From: Acidimicrobiia bacterium
GTDB lineage: Bacteria > Actinomycetota > Acidimicrobiia > Spongiisociales > ZC4RG35
Direction: 5' to 3'
Length of the DNA: 64,000 nucleotides
Assembly (NCBI GenBank): GCA_048595045.1
Contig: JBMDXS010000120.1
Span: 3,736 to 67,735 of the forward strand
The notes below the pieces were generated by a model, which was not told the origin of the DNA, ran no database searches, and saw only the letters and a list, made by a program, of their open reading frames with translations. Within the stretch, counting starts at the first letter, position 1. Every line of letters starts with the position of its first letter. Positions 38,327 to 51,741 of this stretch are shown piece after piece. Made by a program: the position numbers and the translations under genes.

Positions 38327-39679
38327 TCAGAGTTGTCCCGAGCTGACAGGCCCGGAGATGGAGGACAGGTACCCCGGGTCGTCATATCGGGCGAGAAGGA
38401 ATGCCTCGGCGTAATCCGGTAGCTCGGCGCCCACCACGTGCCGGGCCAGCAAGTCGGCCGCTCCGGCTGCCACCATCACCCCGAACCCGGAGAATCCGAC
38501 CAAGAGATGAAAGCCGCTTGGGCCCGCGGGCCCGATGAGGGGGCGATTCTCCCGGGTCTTGGTGTAGTAGCCCCCGTCCACTGTCGTTTGAGGGAGACGT
38601 TCCCGATAGGCGGACAGACCCGGGACCATCGTGCTCAGCCCTCGCAACACCACCTCGGGGTAGAGGGGGTCTGCCGGCAGGGGCCAGACCGGTTCGTCGA
38701 CTATGCCGTGGTACTCCCACAACCCGAGCAGGTAGGGGGAGTCACTTCCGCCTTCGGGTCGGCCGTGACAGAACACGGGGAGCTCTCGGAGCAGGTCATC
38801 ACGCCCTACCGCCGATAGGGCCTCCCGCTCTTCGTCGGTCCAGTCGAGCTGCTGCGGATCGCTCCAGATGATCATCGGGGCGTCCCGGGGGACAACACGG
38901 AGATGGTCCCTGCAAGCGACCTTGAGATGTAGCTCGGAGTAGAGAGGCAGGTCGAGACCGGCCATCGCCGCCACCGGGCCGGCCATCGGACCCGCGGCAT
39001 TCACGACGACCGGTGTCTCGATTGGCCCGTCGCCGACCAGATTCACCTGGCCGACCGCCCCACCAGCCGATTCGATGCCGGCCACCTCGTCGACGACGAG
39101 CTCCAGCCCGTGTGACCTGGCCTGGTCCAGCATCCACGCCCCGAGCTGCTGGGCGCTGAACCAACCGGCCCTGCGTACGTGCACGGCGCCCACCGCCGCA
39201 GGGGTGATATAGGGGAAATGTTCGACGACCATGTCACTCCCAACCAGGAGGTCGACCCCTTCCGGGGCACCGGCGAATCCTTCGTGGTGTGACGGCCGGT
39301 AGGGCAGCGGCCCGGGGTGGAAACGGACCGGGCCCGCCCCGAGGGTGGAGGTGTGGTGAGCGTCTTCGACCATCCGGTGAAAGCGCTCCGCGTCCGCGGT
39401 CACGAACAGGTATCCCCTTCGATTGAGGCCGAAGACGTTTCCTGACTCGGTCGCCATCTTCTCCAGGAGGTCGATCGATCTGCTCATCAGGTCGACCATC
39501 GGTCTGTTGGGCCACCAGTTCCGGTAACACTCCGTCGACTTGTCCGAGGTCAGCGTCAGCGGCGGACGTGGATCGACCACCACGACCCTCCCCACCTCGT
39601 GCCGCACCGCCAAGTCGTACGCCACGGAGACTCCGGCGATCCCCGCTCCGATGACGACTACGTCGACGGTCCGGCTCAA
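38327..39679 (-). CDS. FAD-dependent oxidoreductase (DAO family)
   Basis: 450-aa ORF. Dinucleotide fold VDVVVIGAGIAGVSVAYDL. 4-nt overlap with the transketolase stop. Confidence 0.8.
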   Translation of the reverse strand: MSRTVDVVVIGAGIAGVSVAYDLAVRHEVGRVVVVDPRPPLTLTSDKSTECYRNWWPNRPMVDLMSRSIDLLEKMATESGNVFGLNRRGYLFVTADAERFHRMVEDAHHTSTLGAGPVRFHPGPLPYRPSHHEGFAGAPEGVDLLVGSDMVVEHFPYITPAAVGAVHVRRAGWFSAQQLGAWMLDQARSHGLELVVDEVAGIESAGGAVGQVNLVGDGPIETPVVVNAAGPMAGPVAAMAGLDLPLYSELHLKVACRDHLRVVPRDAPMIIWSDPQQLDWTDEEREALSAVGRDDLLRELPVFCHGRPEGGSDSPYLLGLWEYHGIVDEPVWPLPADPLYPEVVLRGLSTMVPGLSAYRERLPQTTVDGGYYTKTRENRPLIGPAGPSGFHLLVGFSGFGVMVAAGAADLLARHVVGAELPDYAEAFLLARYDDPGYLSSISGPVSSGQL

Positions 39680-41625
39680 CTCGATATCGAGAGATGCTCC
39701 CGGACCTTTGCCGCCACGGCCGGGCCGGTATAGCCGAGCTTCTCGGCGATGACTGTGTCGGGGGCCGATTCACCGAAATGATCGATGCCCAGCATCAGCC
39801 CGTCGGTCCCGATGATGCGCTCCCACCCGAAACTGGCTGCAGCCTCCACTGCCACCCGTGGGGCCTCGCCGAGGACACTCGACCGATATTCCTCGTCCTG
39901 TTCCGCGAACAGCTCCCAGCAGGGCAGGCTGACCACGCGGGCCGCGATGTCATCGCCCTCCAGCTCGGCCGCGGCGTCCAGGGCGACATGGACCTCGGAT
40001 CCGGTGGCGATGATGGTGACATCCCCGCCGTCCCGGAGGACGTAGCCACCTCGTGCCACCCCGGCTCGATCGGTCTGGAGGATGGGCAAGTCCTGGCGGG
40101 TGAGAAGCAGCCCAACAGGGCCGTCGTGGCGGTTGAGGGCGATCTCCCAGGCGGCGACCGTCTCGTTGGCGTCGGCGGGGCGAACCATCCACAAGTTGGG
40201 CATGGCCCGCAGTGAGGCGAGGTGCTCGATCGGCTGGTGTGTGGGGCCGTCCTCACCCAGGAACACCGAGTCGTGGGTCCAAACCCAGACCGAGGGGGCG
40301 GACATCAGGGCCGACAGCCGCACGGCCGGTCGCATGTAGTCGCTGAACACGAAGAAGGTGGCCGCGTAGGGCTTGAGCCCACCGTGCACCGCCATTCCGT
40401 TGGTGATGCATCCCATGGCGTGCTCCCGCACCCCGTAGGGGATGTCCCGGGAGCTCGGGTCGGCAGCCGAGTAGCGCCGGGAGGTGTCGAGGACGGTCTT
40501 GGTGGAGGCAACCAGATCGGCCGATCCACCGAGGAAGCCGGGCACCTTCTCCGAGATCTCGGGGAACACCTTGCCCGAGGCAGACCTGGTGGCCATCGTC
40601 TCGCCGACGGTGAACTCGGGCCCATCCAACGAGACCGGGTCAAAGGAGTGGAGCTCTTCCCAGAGGGCCCGGCGCTCCTCGTCGGCGCTCTCCAGTCTCT
40701 TCTCCCACTTGGCGCGCTCCTCTCTGCCCCAAGCCATCGCCCCCTCGAAGAACTCGTACACCTCCGGATCGACTTCGAATCTTCGATCGACCGGGTAGCC
40801 CATGGCCTGCTTGGCCAGAGCTATCTCCTCTTCGCCGAGGGGTGACCCGTGGGAGGCGGCAGTGTCCTGGGCGTTGGGAGCCCCGTGGGCGATGTGGGTA
40901 TGACAGATCACCAGCGAGGGCCGGTCCTCGAGGTTGATCGCAGCCTCGAGCGCCTCGTCGATGGCGTCCAGATCGTGGCCATCGATCTCCTGGGTGTGCC
41001 ATCCCTGGGCCCGGAAGCGCTTCCCCACGTCCTCCGAGAAAGTGATATCGGTCGACCCGTCGATCGAGATGTCGTTGTCGTCGTACAGATAGATCAGCTT
41101 GCCGAGCCCGAATCGCCCGGCCAGTGAGCCCGCCTCGGCGCTGACTCCCTCCATCAAGTCGCCGTCGCTGACGAACCCGAACGTCCGGTGGTCGACAAGG
41201 TCCGCGCCGAGGCGGGCCCGAAGATGGGTCTCGGCGATGGCCATCCCCACCCCGGTGCCGAAGCCCTGGCCCAGAGGGCCCGTGGTCATCTCGATCCCAA
41301 GCTTCTGATGGATCTCCGGGTGTCCCGCAGTGGGACTACCCCACTGTCTGAAGTTCTTCAGATCTTCCATGGCCATCGGGAAGCCACAGAGATGGAGCAT
41401 CGAGTAGAGGAGCATCGACCCATGGCCGTTGGAGAGGACGAACCGATCCCGGTCGGGCCAGTCGGGGACGTCCGGATCCACCTTCAGGAAACGGCCCCAC
41501 AGCGTGACCGCTATCTCCGCCATTCCCATCGGCATCCCGGGGTGACCGCTGTTGGCCTTCTGCACCGCGTCCATGGCGAGGGCCTTGACGGTGTTGACCG
41601 CCAGCCGCTCCATTCCGTTCCTCAT
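39676..41625 (-). CDS. tkt: transketolase
   Basis: Track ORF 39676..41748 trimmed to the Met at 41625 (MRNGMERLAVNTVKALAMDAVQKANSGHPG). GHGSMLLY and GEDGPTHQPIEH. Confidence 0.95.
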   Translation of the reverse strand: MRNGMERLAVNTVKALAMDAVQKANSGHPGMPMGMAEIAVTLWGRFLKVDPDVPDWPDRDRFVLSNGHGSMLLYSMLHLCGFPMAMEDLKNFRQWGSPTAGHPEIHQKLGIEMTTGPLGQGFGTGVGMAIAETHLRARLGADLVDHRTFGFVSDGDLMEGVSAEAGSLAGRFGLGKLIYLYDDNDISIDGSTDITFSEDVGKRFRAQGWHTQEIDGHDLDAIDEALEAAINLEDRPSLVICHTHIAHGAPNAQDTAASHGSPLGEEEIALAKQAMGYPVDRRFEVDPEVYEFFEGAMAWGREERAKWEKRLESADEERRALWEELHSFDPVSLDGPEFTVGETMATRSASGKVFPEISEKVPGFLGGSADLVASTKTVLDTSRRYSAADPSSRDIPYGVREHAMGCITNGMAVHGGLKPYAATFFVFSDYMRPAVRLSALMSAPSVWVWTHDSVFLGEDGPTHQPIEHLASLRAMPNLWMVRPADANETVAAWEIALNRHDGPVGLLLTRQDLPILQTDRAGVARGGYVLRDGGDVTIIATGSEVHVALDAAAELEGDDIAARVVSLPCWELFAEQDEEYRSSVLGEAPRVAVEAAASFGWERIIGTDGLMLGIDHFGESAPDTVIAEKLGYTGPAVAAKVREHLSISS

Positions 41626-41666
41626 GGTCGGCGAGGGTACCCGGGCCAGGCCCGGGTCAACCATCC

Positions 41667-42422
41667 CTACCCAGGACGGCACTCGGGGCAGGGCTCGAAC
41701 CCTGCAGCCCGCGCTGCATCGGTGGTCTTGAAGTCCACGACGTTCCATTGCCCCGAAGCACGGATGACGTGACAGGTTGGGTGGCAGTACACACCGGTCG
41801 ACGGGTCTGCCTGGACCCGGACGTGATGCTCGGCCAACTCGACCAGATGCCCCAGATCCACACCCTCATGCCGGAGCAGGTCCCACTTGTTGTGCTTGCC
41901 GCCCAGGGAGTACTCCCCGAGGTGCCCGTCGGAGCGCACCACCCGATGACAGGGGATGATGAGCGGGATGGGATTACGGGCCATGGTCGAGCCCACGGCG
42001 CGGGCTGCGTCCGGGCGCTCGGCCTCCCGGGCCAGCCATCCATAGGGCCTGACCTCGCCCCGGGGGATGGATGCGGCGATCTGCAGCACCTTCACCTCGA
42101 ACGGGGTGCGGGACCTCAGATCGACAGGGAGACGGCCGGGCGTGCCTGCCTCCATCGCCTCCGGGATGTGCTTGGCCCACTGCCGCGGTGGCTCGGCCCG
42201 AAGCAGCGGTCGCCCGTATCGGGAGGCGAACCGGCCTTCGAAGCCCGTGGTGGCGAGATCAACCGACGAGACGCCATCCACGTTGAAGGTGATCACGACC
42301 TCGCCCACAGGGGAGGCGTAGATGTCGTAGCCGTCGGCCAGCCCGGTGCCCAGGGCCACCCCTTCGGCAATCCCGTCGGGCAGTGCGCCTGCCAACCCCG
42401 AAAGTCGTTGTTCGATGCTCAT
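41667..42422 (-). CDS. methylated-DNA--protein-cysteine methyltransferase (Ogt-type) with a C-terminal Ada-type Cys4 zinc domain
   Basis: Track ORF 41667..42716 trimmed to ATG 42422 (MSIEQRLSG...). Active site NPIPLIIPCHRVV. The C-terminal 45 aa, TGVYCHPTCHVIRASGQWNVVDFKTTDAARAAGFEPCPECRPG, match the Ada N-domain pattern (CxxxC ... AAGFxPCxxC). Confidence 0.8.
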   Translation of the reverse strand: MSIEQRLSGLAGALPDGIAEGVALGTGLADGYDIYASPVGEVVITFNVDGVSSVDLATTGFEGRFASRYGRPLLRAEPPRQWAKHIPEAMEAGTPGRLPVDLRSRTPFEVKVLQIAASIPRGEVRPYGWLAREAERPDAARAVGSTMARNPIPLIIPCHRVVRSDGHLGEYSLGGKHNKWDLLRHEGVDLGHLVELAEHHVRVQADPSTGVYCHPTCHVIRASGQWNVVDFKTTDAARAAGFEPCPECRPG

Positions 42423-42934
42423 CGTTCTTGCTCCATCACTCGTCTCAAGTGTTCCAGTCCGCGATGGATGTCTGCCTTTACCGTCCCTTCGGGTCGCCCG
42501 GTTGCTTCCGCTATCTCGCCGATGCCAAGACCCACGACGTGGCGCAGCACGACCGCGCGGCGCTGGTGGATCGTGAGGGCTGACAGACGCGCATCCCATG
42601 CTGCGGTGTCGGGGGGCTCGGGATCGTGGTCCCCATGGTCGGTCATCTCGACGAAGACCGGGCGTCGTGACCTGTTGCGCAGGTGGTTGCGGCCCAGATT
42701 GAGGGCGATGGTCCACAGCCAGGGCGAGAGCCGCAGGTCGGCGAAGCGTCCCCGGTCGAACTCACTGAGCGACCGATAGGCCCGAATGAAGGTTTCTTGG
42801 GTCAGGTCCTCGGCTTCCTGGTGATCGCCGCATAGCCGCCGCAGACCCCAGTACAGACCGGGGCCCGCCCTCTTCACCAGATCAGGGAAGGAGGCATCCA
42901 GGTCGGCGGCCAGCTCAGCGGTCAGCTCATCCAT
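42419..42934 (-). CDS. ECF-type sigma-70 family factor
   Basis: 171-aa ORF. Region 2 is EAEDLTQETFIRAYRSL...PWLWTIALNLGRNHLR. Region 4 is HQRRAVVLRHVVGLGIGEIAEATGRPEGTVKADIHRGLEHLR. ATGA overlap with the alkyltransferase gene. Confidence 0.85.
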   Translation of the reverse strand: MDELTAELAADLDASFPDLVKRAGPGLYWGLRRLCGDHQEAEDLTQETFIRAYRSLSEFDRGRFADLRLSPWLWTIALNLGRNHLRNRSRRPVFVEMTDHGDHDPEPPDTAAWDARLSALTIHQRRAVVLRHVVGLGIGEIAEATGRPEGTVKADIHRGLEHLRRVMEQER

Positions 42935-42999
42935 CTCGAGGAAGAACCCCGGAAGAGATGCACCGGTTGCACCAGAGCACCGTACTTAGATGTGCCTCT

Positions 43000-43677
43000 A
43001 TGGACCGGTCGCGGGTCGGGGCGATACTGGACGACGCGGAACGGGCCGCCTCTGCGGGCGAGCCGTTGGGCCCGACCGGGTTCTGGAAGGCTGTTGGAGT
43101 GGTGAAGGGGGACCCGGCCCTGATCGACGAGTATGCCGATCGGATCGCCCGCATCGATCGGGCAGCCTTCAAGACGTGGGCATTGCTCATCGTCCCAATC
43201 TGGCTGGGCAACGTGCTCGCCATTGGCGCGACTCTCGTCGGCCTGGCCCTGGTCGGCTGGTCGTATTACCTGGGCGAGTTCGGAGCGGCGATCGCCTTCC
43301 TCTTCGGGTTCGGGATCGTCCTGGTCACCACCCACGGATTGGCCCACCTGACTGCTGGGACTTTCATGGGGATGCGTTTCACGCACTGGTTCGTCGGCAC
43401 CCTTCTCCAGCCACAACCCGGTGTGAAGCTCGACTACGCCACCTACTTGCGGGCACCGGCATCCTCTCGAGCCTGGATGCACGCTTCCGGCGCCATCGTC
43501 ACCAAGGTGATGCCATTCGCCTTCATCGGCGCGGCCATCGCCGCCGGTGTGCCGGCCTGGGTGCCCTGGGCCCTCGTGATCATCGGCTTGGGGATGATCG
43601 CTATCGACATCCTCTGGTCTACGAAGTCCGCGGACTGGAAGAAGTTTCGCCGCGAGATGAGGTTTCTCCCCTCGTAG
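43000..43677 (+). CDS. hypothetical polytopic membrane protein
   Basis: Track ORF 42958..43677. ATG 43000 (MDRSRVGAIL) is preferred so the gene clears the divergent sigma gene. About 65 soluble aa, then 5-6 hydrophobic helices. Confidence 0.5.
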   Translation: MDRSRVGAILDDAERAASAGEPLGPTGFWKAVGVVKGDPALIDEYADRIARIDRAAFKTWALLIVPIWLGNVLAIGATLVGLALVGWSYYLGEFGAAIAFLFGFGIVLVTTHGLAHLTAGTFMGMRFTHWFVGTLLQPQPGVKLDYATYLRAPASSRAWMHASGAIVTKVMPFAFIGAAIAAGVPAWVPWALVIIGLGMIAIDILWSTKSADWKKFRREMRFLPS

Positions 43678-51105: not shown

Positions 51106-51741
51106 TTAGATCGTGGCCGATGGGTGCAAGACGGGCTCGAAGCCATGTCGCATGGCAGCGACGGAGGTTGGTGGTGTGAGCACCTCCACGGTTTCGCCGA
51201 GGGGAATGGGTCTGGGATCGGCCCAGCCCGAGAAGTCGAACGACATCAGGCGATCGTCGATCACCAACAAGGGGTTGCGCCCGGCGTCGATGATGATCGT
51301 TCCCCGTGGGAGCAGACCGAGTGACGTTGCCCATGTGATGCGGTCGGCAGCCCGCTCCAGGCCACGACCGGGCCGGAGCCGCTCCGTTGCCAGGAGCCGG
51401 TTCAACCTGGTAGCGCCCGGAGGAGGCTCGGCTCGCGCTCGGGAGACCGCCTCCCGATATCGGGCGTAATCGGGGCGCCGGCACAACCCACAAGGGCGAT
51501 GACCGGCCGCCAACGCCACCGCATCGTCGAGGAAGAAGAGCGGGGTCCATGTCCCCGGGGCGTCCACCGGATGTCGCCAGCCTCGGTATTCGGTGACACA
51601 TGTGATCCATAGGTCACCGCGATGATGACGAGCTATCCGACCGTGATCGTCGACGAGACAGCCACGGTTACCGGTGAACAGACCCCGATGAGAGACGGCG
51701 TGGAGGTCGCCGAATGGGTCGACCCGGTTACGACGGGGCAC
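51106..51741 (-). CDS. conserved hypothetical protein
   Basis: 211-aa ORF with MPRRNRVDPFGDL...GNRGCLVDD...LFFLDDAVALAAGHRPCGLCRRPDY. 14-nt overlap with the upstream dehydrogenase gene. Confidence 0.6.
   Translation of the reverse strand: MPRRNRVDPFGDLHAVSHRGLFTGNRGCLVDDHGRIARHHRGDLWITCVTEYRGWRHPVDAPGTWTPLFFLDDAVALAAGHRPCGLCRRPDYARYREAVSRARAEPPPGATRLNRLLATERLRPGRGLERAADRITWATSLGLLPRGTIIIDAGRNPLLVIDDRLMSFDFSGWADPRPIPLGETVEVLTPPTSVAAMRHGFEPVLHPSATI

What the first reader, a model, noticed from the sequence alone, without database searches (positions are those of the whole stretch)
41667..42934. ECF sigma factor translationally coupled to an Ogt alkyltransferase with an Ada-type zinc methyl-acceptor domain at its C-terminus
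Seen: the 171-aa ECF sigma ORF ends in an ATGA overlap with a 251-aa ORF. That ORF has an MGMT/Ogt core (PCHRV active site). Its last 45 residues (TGVYCHPTCHVIRASGQWNVVDFKTTDAARAAGFEPCPECRPG) reproduce the Cys4 pattern of the N-terminal Ada domain (CxxxC ... AAGFxPCxxC). No AraC HTH and no recognisable anti-sigma factor (no HxxxCxxC, no TM protein downstream) is present. Established: in E. coli Ada, the Cys4 zinc domain accepts methyl groups from methylphosphotriesters and thereby switches on the attached AraC-type activator. The C-terminal MGMT domain repairs O6-methylguanine. Inference: both alkyl-acceptor domains are present here, but in inverted order and without a DNA-binding output. The co-translated ECF sigma may be that output, giving an adaptive alkylation response run through sigma-factor control.
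Basis: partly seen in the sequence, partly recalled or inferred. Interest (0 to 1): 0.7.

Follow-up and report, generated by a model that had tools for sequence, protein, structure and literature searches.

The report
Sigma factor coupled to alkyltransferase sensor
A small alternative sigma-factor gene overlaps by four bases a DNA-alkylation-repair gene that also carries an Ada-type methyl-accepting zinc domain. The pair is conserved in three phyla and has its own promoter, so it probably forms an untested alkylation-damage switch, although the gene association itself is already catalogued as ECF group 122.

Summary
On the minus strand, a 171-aa ECF sigma (42934..42419) ends in an ATGA overlap with a 251-aa protein (42422..41667). 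That protein has an MGMT/Ogt core (Pfam PF01035, 98 bits, PCHRV) and a C-terminal Ada zinc domain (PF02805, 42.5 bits against a cut-off of 23, all four Cys present).

It is not a chance adjacency:
- Every related locus with upstream DNA, in Acidimicrobiia, Chloroflexota and Dormibacterota and in cultured Rubrobacter, Nonomuraea, Streptomyces, Micromonospora and Microtetraspora, has the same sigma directly upstream.
- 76 of 79 loci have a 4-base overlap.
- An ECF-type promoter, TGCAAC-N18-GTT, lies at a leaderless distance from the sigma start.
- In Streptomyces-type actinomycetes the +1 protein has lost DNA-repair residues but keeps the acceptor cysteines, and a canonical Ogt sits beside it. 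In Micromonospora that Ogt has the same promoter motif.

This fits an alkylation-sensing regulator, most likely an anti-sigma, whose output is alkyltransferase. Binding and alkylation-dependent release are inferred, not shown.

The sigma–MGMT association is already listed in the ECF classification (ECF122, "unknown mechanism"), so this is a new member of a catalogued, uncharacterised kind.

The parts
42940..42974 (-). ECF-type autoregulatory promoter. It reads TGGTGCAACCGGTGCATCTCTTCCGGGGTTCTTCC, with -35 TGCAAC at 42971..42966 and -10 GTTCT at 42947..42943. The -10 ends 8 nt before the sigma ATG, so the transcript is leaderless or nearly so.
   Evidence: A PWM built from 70 unique orthologous sites scores this site 25.8 bits. 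The next best site in the 64-kb window scores 9.1, which is the noise level of shuffles. GCAAC-N17-19-GTT occurs in 76 of 77 upstream regions, against a background of 0.004 per 150 nt.
42419..42934 (-). ECF sigma factor, 171 aa, with sigma-2 and sigma-4 domains only.
   Evidence: Pfam Sigma70_r2 at 19-91 and Sigma70_r4_2 at 113-163. The best NCBIfam match is the SigE-family subfamily, below its cut-off, and no equivalog is reached.
42419..42422 (-). ATGA overlap: the sigma stop TGA overlaps the partner start ATG, which implies translational coupling.
   Evidence: Read directly from the sequence. The same 4-base overlap is found in 76 of 79 related loci, 73 as ATGA and 3 as GTGA.
41667..42422 (-). 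Partner protein, 251 aa: N-terminal extension, MGMT N-like domain, MGMT catalytic core and Ada-type zinc domain.
42330..42422 (-). Family-specific N-terminal extension (residues 1-31, M.IE..L..L....P......ALGTGLADG), which canonical Ogt proteins lack. It is the candidate sigma-contact segment (inference).
   Evidence: Conserved across phyla as E..L..L...AP......V...GLAD.Y, and longer in Chloroflexota. The AF2 model gives a helix at 3-11 with low confidence when the protein is folded alone. It is absent from the adjacent canonical Ogt proteins in alignment A4.
41859..42104 (-). MGMT/Ogt catalytic and DNA-binding core (residues 107-188). The alkyl-acceptor Cys158 codon is at 41949..41951, within PCHRV.
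   Evidence: PF01035, 97.9 bits. The best PDB sequence match is E. coli Ada-C, 1sfe, E 2.4e-16. Cys158 is conserved in 77 of 77 unique orthologues. Y127, R141, N150, H159, R160 and E186 are invariant within the close family.
41673..41804 (-). Ada-type Cys4 zinc methyl-acceptor domain (residues 207-250). Cys codons: C213 at 41784..41786, C217 at 41772..41774, C245 at 41688..41690, C248 at 41679..41681.
   Evidence: PF02805, 42.5 bits against a cut-off of 23. It aligns to N-Ada residues 31-74. Foldseek hits 1u8b and 1wpk, the latter at rmsd 2.2 A over 49 columns. AF2 pLDDT is 84-94 in this part. The four Cys are conserved in every orthologue that has the domain.

Best explanation
This is a self-contained, positively autoregulated two-gene alkylation-response module.

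The ECF sigma factor transcribes its own leaderless operon from a TGCAAC-N18-GTT promoter. The translationally coupled +1 protein is made in step with the sigma. It carries two suicide alkyl-acceptor sites. One is the MGMT Cys158, which accepts O6-alkylguanine adducts. The other is the Ada-type zinc-thiolate Cys213, which accepts methylphosphotriesters.

The most likely mechanism is that the unalkylated protein holds the sigma inactive, acting as a soluble anti-sigma factor of a new type. Irreversible alkyl transfer to one or both cysteines would inactivate or consume it. That would free the sigma, which would then resynthesise sigma plus fresh alkyltransferase until unalkylated protein again exceeds the sigma. 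The circuit would be a consumption-sensing homeostat.

Shown here:
- the domain content;
- universal pairing and translational coupling;
- the conserved autoregulatory promoter;
- invariant catalytic and zinc residues;
- alkyltransferase as the predicted output.

Inferred, not shown: sigma binding by the partner, and release upon alkylation.
For: 1. The architecture is confirmed.

2. The pair is the only conserved unit.
- A sigma homologue lies directly upstream on the same strand in 78 of 78 genome loci with upstream DNA. These span Acidimicrobiia, Chloroflexota (Limnocylindria, Ktedonobacterales, Anaerolineae) and Dormibacterota.
- The same holds in cultured Rubrobacter, Nonomuraea, Streptomyces, Micromonospora and Microtetraspora.
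- The flanking genes differ between phyla.

3. A 4-base overlap is present in 76 of 79 loci.

4. From the sigma side, the five best tblastn hits in the plasmid collection (87-106 bits) are all MGMT-paired. Of the lower hits (82 bits or less), three were inspected: Tsukamurella (a SigE-type locus), Miltoncostaea (followed by a 535-aa hypothetical) and Nocardia (no annotation in the stretch shown, neighbours not examined). The SigW-annotated and other hits were not inspected.

5. The promoter TGCAAC(C)-N18-GTT lies at a fixed leaderless distance in 76 of 77 loci, against a background of 0.004 per 150 nt. It is also present in Nonomuraea, Streptomyces and Rubrobacter. A positive loop needs a brake, and the +1 protein is the only universally linked candidate.

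6. The acceptor sites are under selection. Cys158 is conserved in 77 of 77 orthologues, and the Cys4 ligands are conserved wherever the domain exists.

7. Subfunctionalisation has occurred in Streptomyces, Micromonospora and Microtetraspora.
- The +1 protein has lost the Tyr (RPY to RPV/RPL), and three of the four aligned +1 proteins have lost the RAVG arginine. It keeps PCHR, Glu and Cys4.
- A canonical Ogt sits at +2 (Streptomyces) or divergently at -1 (Micromonospora).
- The Micromonospora Ogt has a 20.4-bit copy of the promoter motif upstream.
- Microtetraspora has two extra strong sites (23.3 and 29.9 bits) in front of an MFS transporter and an SDR.

8. A natural sigma-MGMT-like-Ada_Zn fusion persists in three Streptomyces species.

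9. A family-specific N-terminal extension is conserved across phyla.
Against: - There is no direct evidence that the two proteins bind each other.
- No known anti-sigma domain is detectable.
- Five Acidimicrobiia loci keep sigma plus MGMT but lack the zinc domain, so that domain cannot be the sole sensor.
- In the window's own clade the partner keeps every DNA-repair residue. It could be simply an enzyme.
- The fusion lineage has a degenerate sigma-2 region and a degenerate -10 element. It may be decaying, so it is weak Rosetta-stone evidence.
- Streptomyces loci carry a SARP regulator just upstream, which could control the sigma instead.
- No further promoter copies were found in the 64-kb window, so the regulon here is undefined beyond the operon itself.
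Confidence: 0.5

Rival explanations
1. Cargo only. The +1 protein is just a bifunctional repair enzyme (O6-alkylguanine plus methylphosphotriester) co-expressed with the sigma. Sigma activity would be controlled by something else, such as transcription by another regulator, proteolysis, or a factor encoded elsewhere.
For: - In the window's clade all catalytic and DNA-binding residues of a working MGMT are invariant.
- No anti-sigma domain is detectable.
- The ECF classification paper itself warns that conserved neighbours may be targets rather than regulators (PMC7826278).
- Streptomyces loci have a SARP regulator directly upstream.
Against: - A pure target is not expected to be fused to the sigma stop codon by a 4-base overlap in 76 of 79 loci across phyla.
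- An autoregulated sigma with no inhibitor would lock on.
- In Streptomyces-type actinomycetes the +1 protein has lost repair-critical residues yet is retained next to a canonical Ogt.
- The family-specific N-terminal extension has no role in known Ogt enzymes.
Confidence: 0.25
2. Ada-like co-activator. After methylation of the zinc-thiolate, the partner gains DNA affinity and helps the sigma-RNAP holoenzyme at the promoter. It would be a positive regulator, not an anti-sigma.
For: - The zinc domain matches N-Ada, including the acceptor Cys.
- In E. coli, methylated N-Ada becomes a DNA-binding activator that contacts RNA polymerase (own knowledge of the Ada system; 1u8b is the methylated N-Ada/DNA complex).
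- The natural fusion to the sigma C-terminus is compatible with joint promoter binding.
Against: - There is no AraC-type HTH to give sequence specificity.
- No conserved element beyond the -35 and -10 is shared across phyla.
- Five lineages lack the zinc domain but keep the pair and the promoter.
Confidence: 0.15
3. Chance adjacency or a mis-called domain. The two genes would merely be neighbours, and the C-terminal Cys pattern a fortuitous match.
For: None found.
Against: - Pfam scores are well above the gathering cut-offs.
- The four Cys align with the Ada zinc ligands.
- Pairing is conserved in more than 85 loci from at least three phyla at 30-88% partner identity.
Confidence: 0.01

Closest known systems
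ECF group ECF122 of the ECF classification 2.0 (Casas-Pastor et al. 2021, PMC7826278), as summarised in PMC8999054
   Same: An ECF sigma with no recognisable anti-sigma factor whose conserved genomic neighbour is a 6-O-methylguanine DNA methyltransferase. It is listed under 'unknown mechanism', with an exemplar from an actinobacterium (Cellulomonas sp. Root930, WP_057211282.1).
   Different: Membership could not be verified with the ECF Hub models. The published text available here does not mention the C-terminal Ada zinc domain, the ATGA coupling, the promoter motif, the spread into Chloroflexota and Dormibacterota, or the extra canonical Ogt. No member has been studied experimentally. The term ECF122 occurs in one paper of the library.
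Escherichia coli Ada (adaptive response to alkylation)
   Same: The same two suicide acceptor domains are present: an N-Ada-type Cys4 zinc domain and a C-Ada MGMT domain. The best PDB sequence match of the core is 1sfe, which is Ada-C, and the tail matches 1adn/1u8b. The inferred logic is also shared: positive autoregulation triggered by self-alkylation.
   Different: The domain order is inverted (MGMT, then zinc). There is no AraC/XylS HTH. The output would be a separate, translationally coupled ECF sigma rather than a DNA-binding domain in the same chain. The first 21 profile positions of the Ada domain are not matched.
Bacillus subtilis AdaA/AdaB and Mycobacterium tuberculosis AdaA-AlkA/Ogt (split adaptive-response operons; own knowledge)
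   Same: The acceptor functions are distributed over an operon, and a separate Ogt-type enzyme is co-expressed. The Streptomyces variant of this module likewise has a canonical Ogt at +2.
   Different: Those systems still use an AraC-type HTH fused to the zinc domain as the transcription factor. No sigma factor is involved.
SigR-RsrA and other zinc-associated (ZAS) anti-sigma factors
   Same: A cytoplasmic, soluble regulator of an autoregulated actinobacterial ECF sigma. It senses through reactive zinc-bound cysteine thiolates. The promoter has the same format (xxAAC/T-N18-GTT; own knowledge of SigR/SigH/SigE promoters).
   Different: There is no HxxxCxxC anti-sigma domain. The chemistry would be irreversible alkyl transfer by a DNA-repair fold rather than reversible disulfide formation.
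ECF sigmas with fused C-terminal regulatory domains (for example ECF41, ECF42)
   Same: In three Streptomyces species the sigma and the MGMT-like/Ada_Zn protein form a single polypeptide. This is analogous to cis-acting regulatory extensions.
   Different: The fusion is confined to one narrow lineage and looks partly degenerate. In the window and nearly everywhere else the two are separate proteins.

Membership tests
ECF (group 4) sigma-70 family | Sigma-2 and sigma-4 domains only, about 170-200 aa, with no region 1 or 3 | tested here: met
   PF04542 at 19-91 and PF08281 at 113-163 in a 171-aa protein; TIGR02937 sigma70-ECF scores 60.5 against a cut-off of 42.9.
ECF122 | A conserved 6-O-methylguanine DNA methyltransferase gene next to the sigma, and no canonical anti-sigma factor | tested here: met
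   An MGMT-domain protein lies at +1 with an ATGA overlap. No anti-sigma Pfam family is found in it or in the divergent neighbour. The descriptor comes from PMC8999054.
ECF122 | Assignment by the ECF Hub group HMM, or demonstrable orthology to the exemplar WP_057211282.1 | not testable with these tools
The supplement of PMC7826278 is not held, and Staron 2009 and Huang 2015 are not held.
MGMT/Ogt O6-alkylguanine-DNA alkyltransferase (PF01035) | A PCHR active-site motif with the acceptor cysteine | tested here: met
   PCHRV at residues 157-161. Cys158 is conserved in 77 of 77 orthologues.
MGMT/Ogt O6-alkylguanine-DNA alkyltransferase (PF01035) | The DNA-repair determinants equivalent to human AGT Tyr114, Arg128, Asn137 and Glu172 (residue roles from own knowledge) | tested here: met
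   Y127 (GEVRPY), R141 (ARAVG), N150 (RNP) and E186 (HEG) are invariant in the close family. Streptomyces, Micromonospora and Microtetraspora +1 proteins have lost the Tyr, and three of the four aligned have lost the Arg.
MGMT/Ogt O6-alkylguanine-DNA alkyltransferase (PF01035) | An N-terminal ribonuclease-like domain (PF02870) | tested here: inconclusive
   PF02870 is not reported for the window protein. AF2 predicts three strands and a helix at residues 30-69, as in Ogt N-domains, and Foldseek aligns about 165 columns to whole Ogt structures. The model is mediocre (pLDDT 68).
MGMT/Ogt O6-alkylguanine-DNA alkyltransferase (PF01035) | Stoichiometric alkyl transfer from O6-alkylguanine DNA | not testable with these tools
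   This needs a biochemical assay.
Ada zinc methyl-acceptor domain (PF02805) | A profile match above the gathering threshold | tested here: met
   42.5 bits against 23 for the whole protein, and 45 bits for the last 43 residues alone.
Ada zinc methyl-acceptor domain (PF02805) | Four Cys zinc ligands, including the acceptor equivalent to Ada Cys38 | tested here: met
   C213/C217/C245/C248 align with Ada Cys38/42/69/72 (query 206-250 against 1adn 31-74). They are conserved in all orthologues that have the domain.
Ada zinc methyl-acceptor domain (PF02805) | The complete domain, including the N-terminal helix and strand (profile positions 1-21) | tested here: inconclusive
   Only profile positions 22-64 align. 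AF2 places a helix at 190-198 and a strand at 203-206 just before the matched part, with pLDDT 84-92, which is compatible with a divergent full domain.
Ada zinc methyl-acceptor domain (PF02805) | Methyl transfer from Sp-methylphosphotriesters to the zinc-bound Cys | not testable with these tools
   This needs a biochemical assay.
Ada-type bifunctional transcriptional regulator (E. coli Ada, NF011964) | An AraC/XylS helix-turn-helix between the zinc domain and the MGMT domain, in the order Zn-HTH-MGMT | tested here: not met
   No HTH_18/AraC hit at E<=1. NF011964 scores 94 against a cut-off of 345 and covers only the MGMT part, profile positions 257-348. The domain order is MGMT, then Zn.
Class I (ASD/ZAS) anti-sigma factors | A recognisable anti-sigma domain (zf-HC2, RskA and similar; HxxxCxxC) | tested here: not met
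   No such Pfam family at E<=1 in the partner and none in the divergent membrane protein. No HxxxCxxC motif is present in the sequence.

The most novel reading that the evidence does not exclude
The MGMT/Ada-zinc protein is a new class of anti-sigma factor. It would be a suicide DNA-repair enzyme whose irreversible self-alkylation, at the MGMT cysteine, the zinc-thiolate cysteine or both, releases its cognate ECF sigma. That would give Actinomycetota, Chloroflexota and relatives an Ada-independent adaptive response to alkylation. In it the sensor, the brake and the main output are the same consumable protein.
Probability: 0.4. Interest if true: 0.85.

Novelty: new member of a known kind. Interest (0 to 1): 0.6.

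Why it matters
If the partner controls the sigma, this would be the first anti-sigma factor built from a DNA-repair fold. It would also be a second, independent way of wiring a bacterial adaptive response to alkylation: a sigma factor in place of an AraC-type activator.

It would assign a mechanism to ECF122, one of the ECF groups still listed as having no known regulator.

It is directly testable in cultured organisms that carry the module: Streptomyces spp., Micromonospora sagamiensis, Nonomuraea gerenzanensis and Rubrobacter radiotolerans. The promoter motif defined here, TGCAAC-N18-GTT, provides a ready reporter.

Practically, it could supply an orthogonal, alkylating-agent-responsive ECF switch. 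In Streptomyces it may mark self-resistance loci for alkylating natural products.

Tried and rejected
No complex model could therefore be made.

2. AlphaFold of the partner alone with a shallow 40-sequence alignment gave a mediocre model (pLDDT 68, pTM 0.46). It served only to confirm folds.

3. The divergent membrane protein (43000..43677) was considered as the real anti-sigma factor and rejected. It has no Pfam family, and it is conserved only in 23 Acidimicrobiia loci.

4. A PWM scan for further regulon members found nothing above noise in the 64-kb window. In 649 kb of metagenomic and MAG loci it found no intergenic targets.

5. The promoter-like hits inside the sigma ORF of 8 Chloroflexota loci are explained by the coding sequence RNRARVRRVPT, so they were not taken as promoters.

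6. The sigma-MGMT fusion is not widely recurrent. Only three close Streptomyces proteins have it, so it is weak evidence.

7. No experimental study of an ECF-MGMT system was found.

8. ECF122 could not be verified by HMM. The supplement of PMC7826278 is not held, nor are Staron 2009 and Huang 2015.

9. No sigma-70-type promoter or intrinsic terminator was found in 41300-43300.
Full report
**What is in the window**

Both genes lie on the minus strand. The ECF sigma ORF runs 42934..42419 (171 aa). The second ORF runs 42422..41667 (251 aa). The sigma stop codon and the second ORF's ATG share the four bases ATGA at 42422..42419.

Pfam finds only Sigma70_r2 and Sigma70_r4_2 in the sigma. In the partner it finds:
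- the MGMT family domain DNA_binding_1 at residues 107-188 (97.9 bits);
- Ada_Zn_binding at residues 207-250 (42.5 bits, gathering cut-off 23, profile positions 22-64 of 65).

The last 43 residues alone score 45 bits. NCBIfam agrees on the Ogt superfamily. The full-length E. coli Ada equivalog is far below its cut-off and matches only through the MGMT part.

Against PDB sequences, the core is closest to E. coli Ada-C (1sfe, E 2.4e-16) and human AGT. Residues 206-250 align to residues 31-74 of N-Ada (1adn, 1u8b, 1zgw). This places C213, C217, C245 and C248 on the zinc ligands Cys38, 42, 69 and 72.

An AlphaFold model of the partner alone is mediocre overall (pLDDT 68). It is confident in the zinc domain (84-94). 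Foldseek returns only Ogt/AGT structures plus N-Ada.

No AraC HTH and no anti-sigma family is detectable. The only addition is a multi-pass membrane protein encoded divergently upstream (43000..43677).

**Is the pairing meaningful?**

The partner belongs to a large family. At least 120 clusters at 90% identity have the same PF01035+PF02805 architecture.

A scan of one genome per species returned 80 loci with near-full-length relatives at 42-82% identity. They come from Acidimicrobiia, Chloroflexota (Limnocylindria, Ktedonobacterales, Anaerolineae), Dormibacterota and others. In all 78 loci with upstream DNA, a homologue of the window's sigma lies immediately upstream on the same strand. Its identity falls in step with that of the partner. 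In 76 of 79 distinct loci the two ORFs overlap by ATGA or GTGA. The other three overlap by 11 bases or are separated by 1 (L055) or 16 (L072) bases as called.

The flanking genes are not conserved between phyla:
- Acidimicrobiia have the divergent membrane protein and a downstream transketolase.
- Chloroflexota have a divergent SAM-dependent methyltransferase and a downstream EamA transporter.

Seen from the sigma side, the five best matches in the plasmid collection (87-106 bits) are all MGMT-paired. Of the lower matches (82 bits or less), the two with usable annotation are other ECF contexts: a mycobacterial SigE-type locus in Tsukamurella and a sigma followed by a 535-aa hypothetical in Miltoncostaea. 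The Nocardia stretch has no annotation and its neighbours were not examined. The remaining lower hits (SigW-annotated and others) were not inspected.

The sigma-partner pair is therefore the unit of selection.

**Promoter**

Upstream of the sigma start there is a conserved bipartite motif, TGCAAC(C)(G)-N-GG(T/G)GTT(C)(T), with GCAAC and GTT separated by 18 nt in 73 of 76 loci.

In the window it is at 42974..42940. The -10 element ends 8 nt before the ATG, which implies a leaderless or near-leaderless mRNA. In Chloroflexota it sits at a fixed -36 in most loci. The background frequency of the pattern in the same loci is 0.004 per 150 nt.

The format (xxAAC-N18-GTT) is that of actinobacterial SigE/SigH/SigR-type ECF promoters (own knowledge). 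The motif is also present before the sigma in Nonomuraea, Streptomyces and Rubrobacter.

I infer positive autoregulation. Within the 64-kb window no second site stands out from noise. There is no second MGMT gene or related sigma gene in the window.

**Residue conservation**

Across 77 unique orthologues the acceptor Cys158 is invariant. The four zinc cysteines are present in every protein that has the C-terminal domain.

Within the close family, the equivalents of the human AGT residues Tyr114, Arg128, Asn137 and Glu172 are invariant (Y127, R141, N150, E186; residue roles from own knowledge). The window's protein therefore looks like a working DNA alkyltransferase.

It also has a roughly 30-residue N-terminal extension that canonical Ogt proteins lack. 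The extension is conserved across phyla as E..L..L...AP......V...GLAD.Y.

Five Acidimicrobiia loci have a partner that ends after the MGMT core (191-201 aa). They keep the sigma, the overlap and the promoter. The Ada zinc domain is therefore usual but not indispensable.

**Cultured relatives sharpen the picture**

- Rubrobacter radiotolerans (plasmid 2) and Nonomuraea gerenzanensis carry the same pair with overlapping genes.
- In several Streptomyces plasmids and chromosomes the order is SARP regulator, sigma, a 4-base overlap, a protein annotated 'Ada metal-binding domain-containing' or 'MGMT family', then a canonical Ogt.
- In these actinomycetes the +1 protein scores only about 40 bits on the MGMT profile. 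It has RPV/RPL in place of RPY, and three of the four aligned proteins lack the RAVG arginine. It keeps PCHR, the Glu and the complete Cys4 domain. The neighbouring Ogt keeps all repair residues.
- In Micromonospora sagamiensis the canonical Ogt is divergent from the sigma and has a 20.4-bit copy of the promoter motif upstream.
- In Microtetraspora two further strong copies (23.3 and 29.9 bits) face an MFS transporter and a short-chain dehydrogenase.
- In three closely related Streptomyces species the sigma and the MGMT-like/Ada_Zn protein are one 448-502-aa polypeptide. That lineage's sigma-2 region and -10 element look degenerate.

**Interpretation**

Taken together, the evidence shows the following:
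- a two-gene module is under joint selection;
- it is very probably transcribed from the sigma's own promoter;
- alkyltransferase is its predicted output;
- where a separate Ogt is available, the +1 protein keeps its alkyl-acceptor cysteines while shedding DNA-repair residues.

The most economical mechanism is that the +1 protein is the sigma's cognate regulator and that self-alkylation is the signal. I favour an anti-sigma role, because a positive loop needs a brake and 1:1 coupled synthesis is typical of sigma/anti-sigma pairs. This would give a consumption-sensing homeostat for the active alkyltransferase pool.

None of the following was shown here: binding, release on alkylation, or which cysteine matters. 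The rivals are a pure co-expressed repair enzyme and an Ada-like co-activator. A partner deletion and cysteine mutants would separate all three.

**Comparison with what is known**

The link is not new as an observation. A 2022 review of non-canonical ECF sigma factors lists '6-O-methylguanine DNA methyltransferases (ECF122)' among conserved neighbours of ECF groups that lack anti-sigma factors. It files ECF122 under 'unknown mechanism', with a Cellulomonas exemplar, citing the 2021 ECF re-classification (PMC8999054; PMC7826278).

I could not run the ECF Hub models, so membership rests on the shared defining context.

No paper in the library treats the system experimentally.

Relative to E. coli Ada, the module has the same two acceptor domains in inverted order. 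It lacks the AraC HTH and would use a separate sigma as its output. It is not a member of the Ada regulator family, but it plausibly works like one. Relative to ZAS anti-sigma factors such as RsrA, it shares the reactive zinc-thiolate idea and the promoter format, but not the fold.

**Verdict**

This is a real, strongly conserved and mechanistically uncharacterised module. The window's copy is a new member of a catalogued kind. The mechanistic hypothesis is well motivated, testable in cultured strains, and would be of high interest if confirmed.

Noticed in passing
window 42975-43000, with the divergent gene 43000..43677 (+): A conserved block, CATCTAAGTACGGTGC as read on the minus strand, lies between the sigma -35 element and the start of a divergent 225-aa multi-pass membrane protein with no Pfam family. 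Block and gene co-occur in about 20 Acidimicrobiia loci and are absent elsewhere. The block may be the promoter or an operator of the membrane-protein gene.
   Followed up: partly
Chloroflexota loci, for example L049:2278-3315 (-) and L063:4841-5878 (+): In about 30 Chloroflexota loci a SAM-dependent methyltransferase (Methyltransf_31/25/11) is divergent from the sigma, about 60-75 bp away. An EamA transporter follows the partner by about 45 bp. This may be clade synteny or part of the same response.
   Followed up: partly
L087, L089, L090, L091 (Streptomyces): A SARP/BTAD regulator gene sits immediately upstream of the sigma, and metF/metH (methyl-cycle genes) are nearby on the plasmids. This may point to a link with secondary metabolism or self-resistance to an alkylating product.
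   Followed up: no
L094:6565-6665 (Microtetraspora malaysiensis): Two back-to-back strong copies of the promoter motif (29.9 and 23.3 bits) lie in the intergenic region between an MFS_1 transporter and a short-chain dehydrogenase. This suggests a regulon beyond alkyltransferases.
   Followed up: partly
L038, L040, L044, L045, L048, L060, L064, L067, about 260 nt into the sigma ORF: A second promoter-like match (18-25 bits) lies inside the sigma coding sequence. It encodes RNRARVRRVPT, so it is probably a coding coincidence, but an internal promoter for the partner is not excluded.
   Followed up: partly
L023, L026, L032, L033, L036: These Acidimicrobiia partners end after the MGMT core (191-201 aa) and lack the Ada zinc domain. 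They keep the sigma, the ATGA overlap and the promoter.
   Followed up: partly
L088:2356-3702 (Streptomyces sp. NBC_00212), P0121, P0122: A natural single-chain fusion of sigma (region 4 detectable, region 2 degenerate), MGMT-like domain and Ada_Zn domain occurs in three related Streptomyces species. Its upstream -10 element is degenerate.
   Followed up: yes
window 51106..51741 (-): A 211-aa ORF with no Pfam family contains 'ALAAGHRPCGLCRRP', which resembles the C-terminal half of the Ada zinc motif (tblastn E 0.02 to partner residues 185-249).
   Followed up: partly
L007 and L013 (same MAG, MFD00962.bin.2.52, labelled Acidobacteriota): One bin carries two copies of the module at about 80% identity to the window. 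The L013 partner appears frameshifted near residue 60. The taxonomic label disagrees with the Acidimicrobiia-like sequence, so the bin may be mixed or mislabelled.
   Followed up: no
window 39676..41640 (-): Transketolase starts about 26 nt after the partner's stop codon on the same strand, with no terminator-like site between them. It also follows the pair in several related Acidimicrobiia loci and could be co-transcribed.
   Followed up: partly
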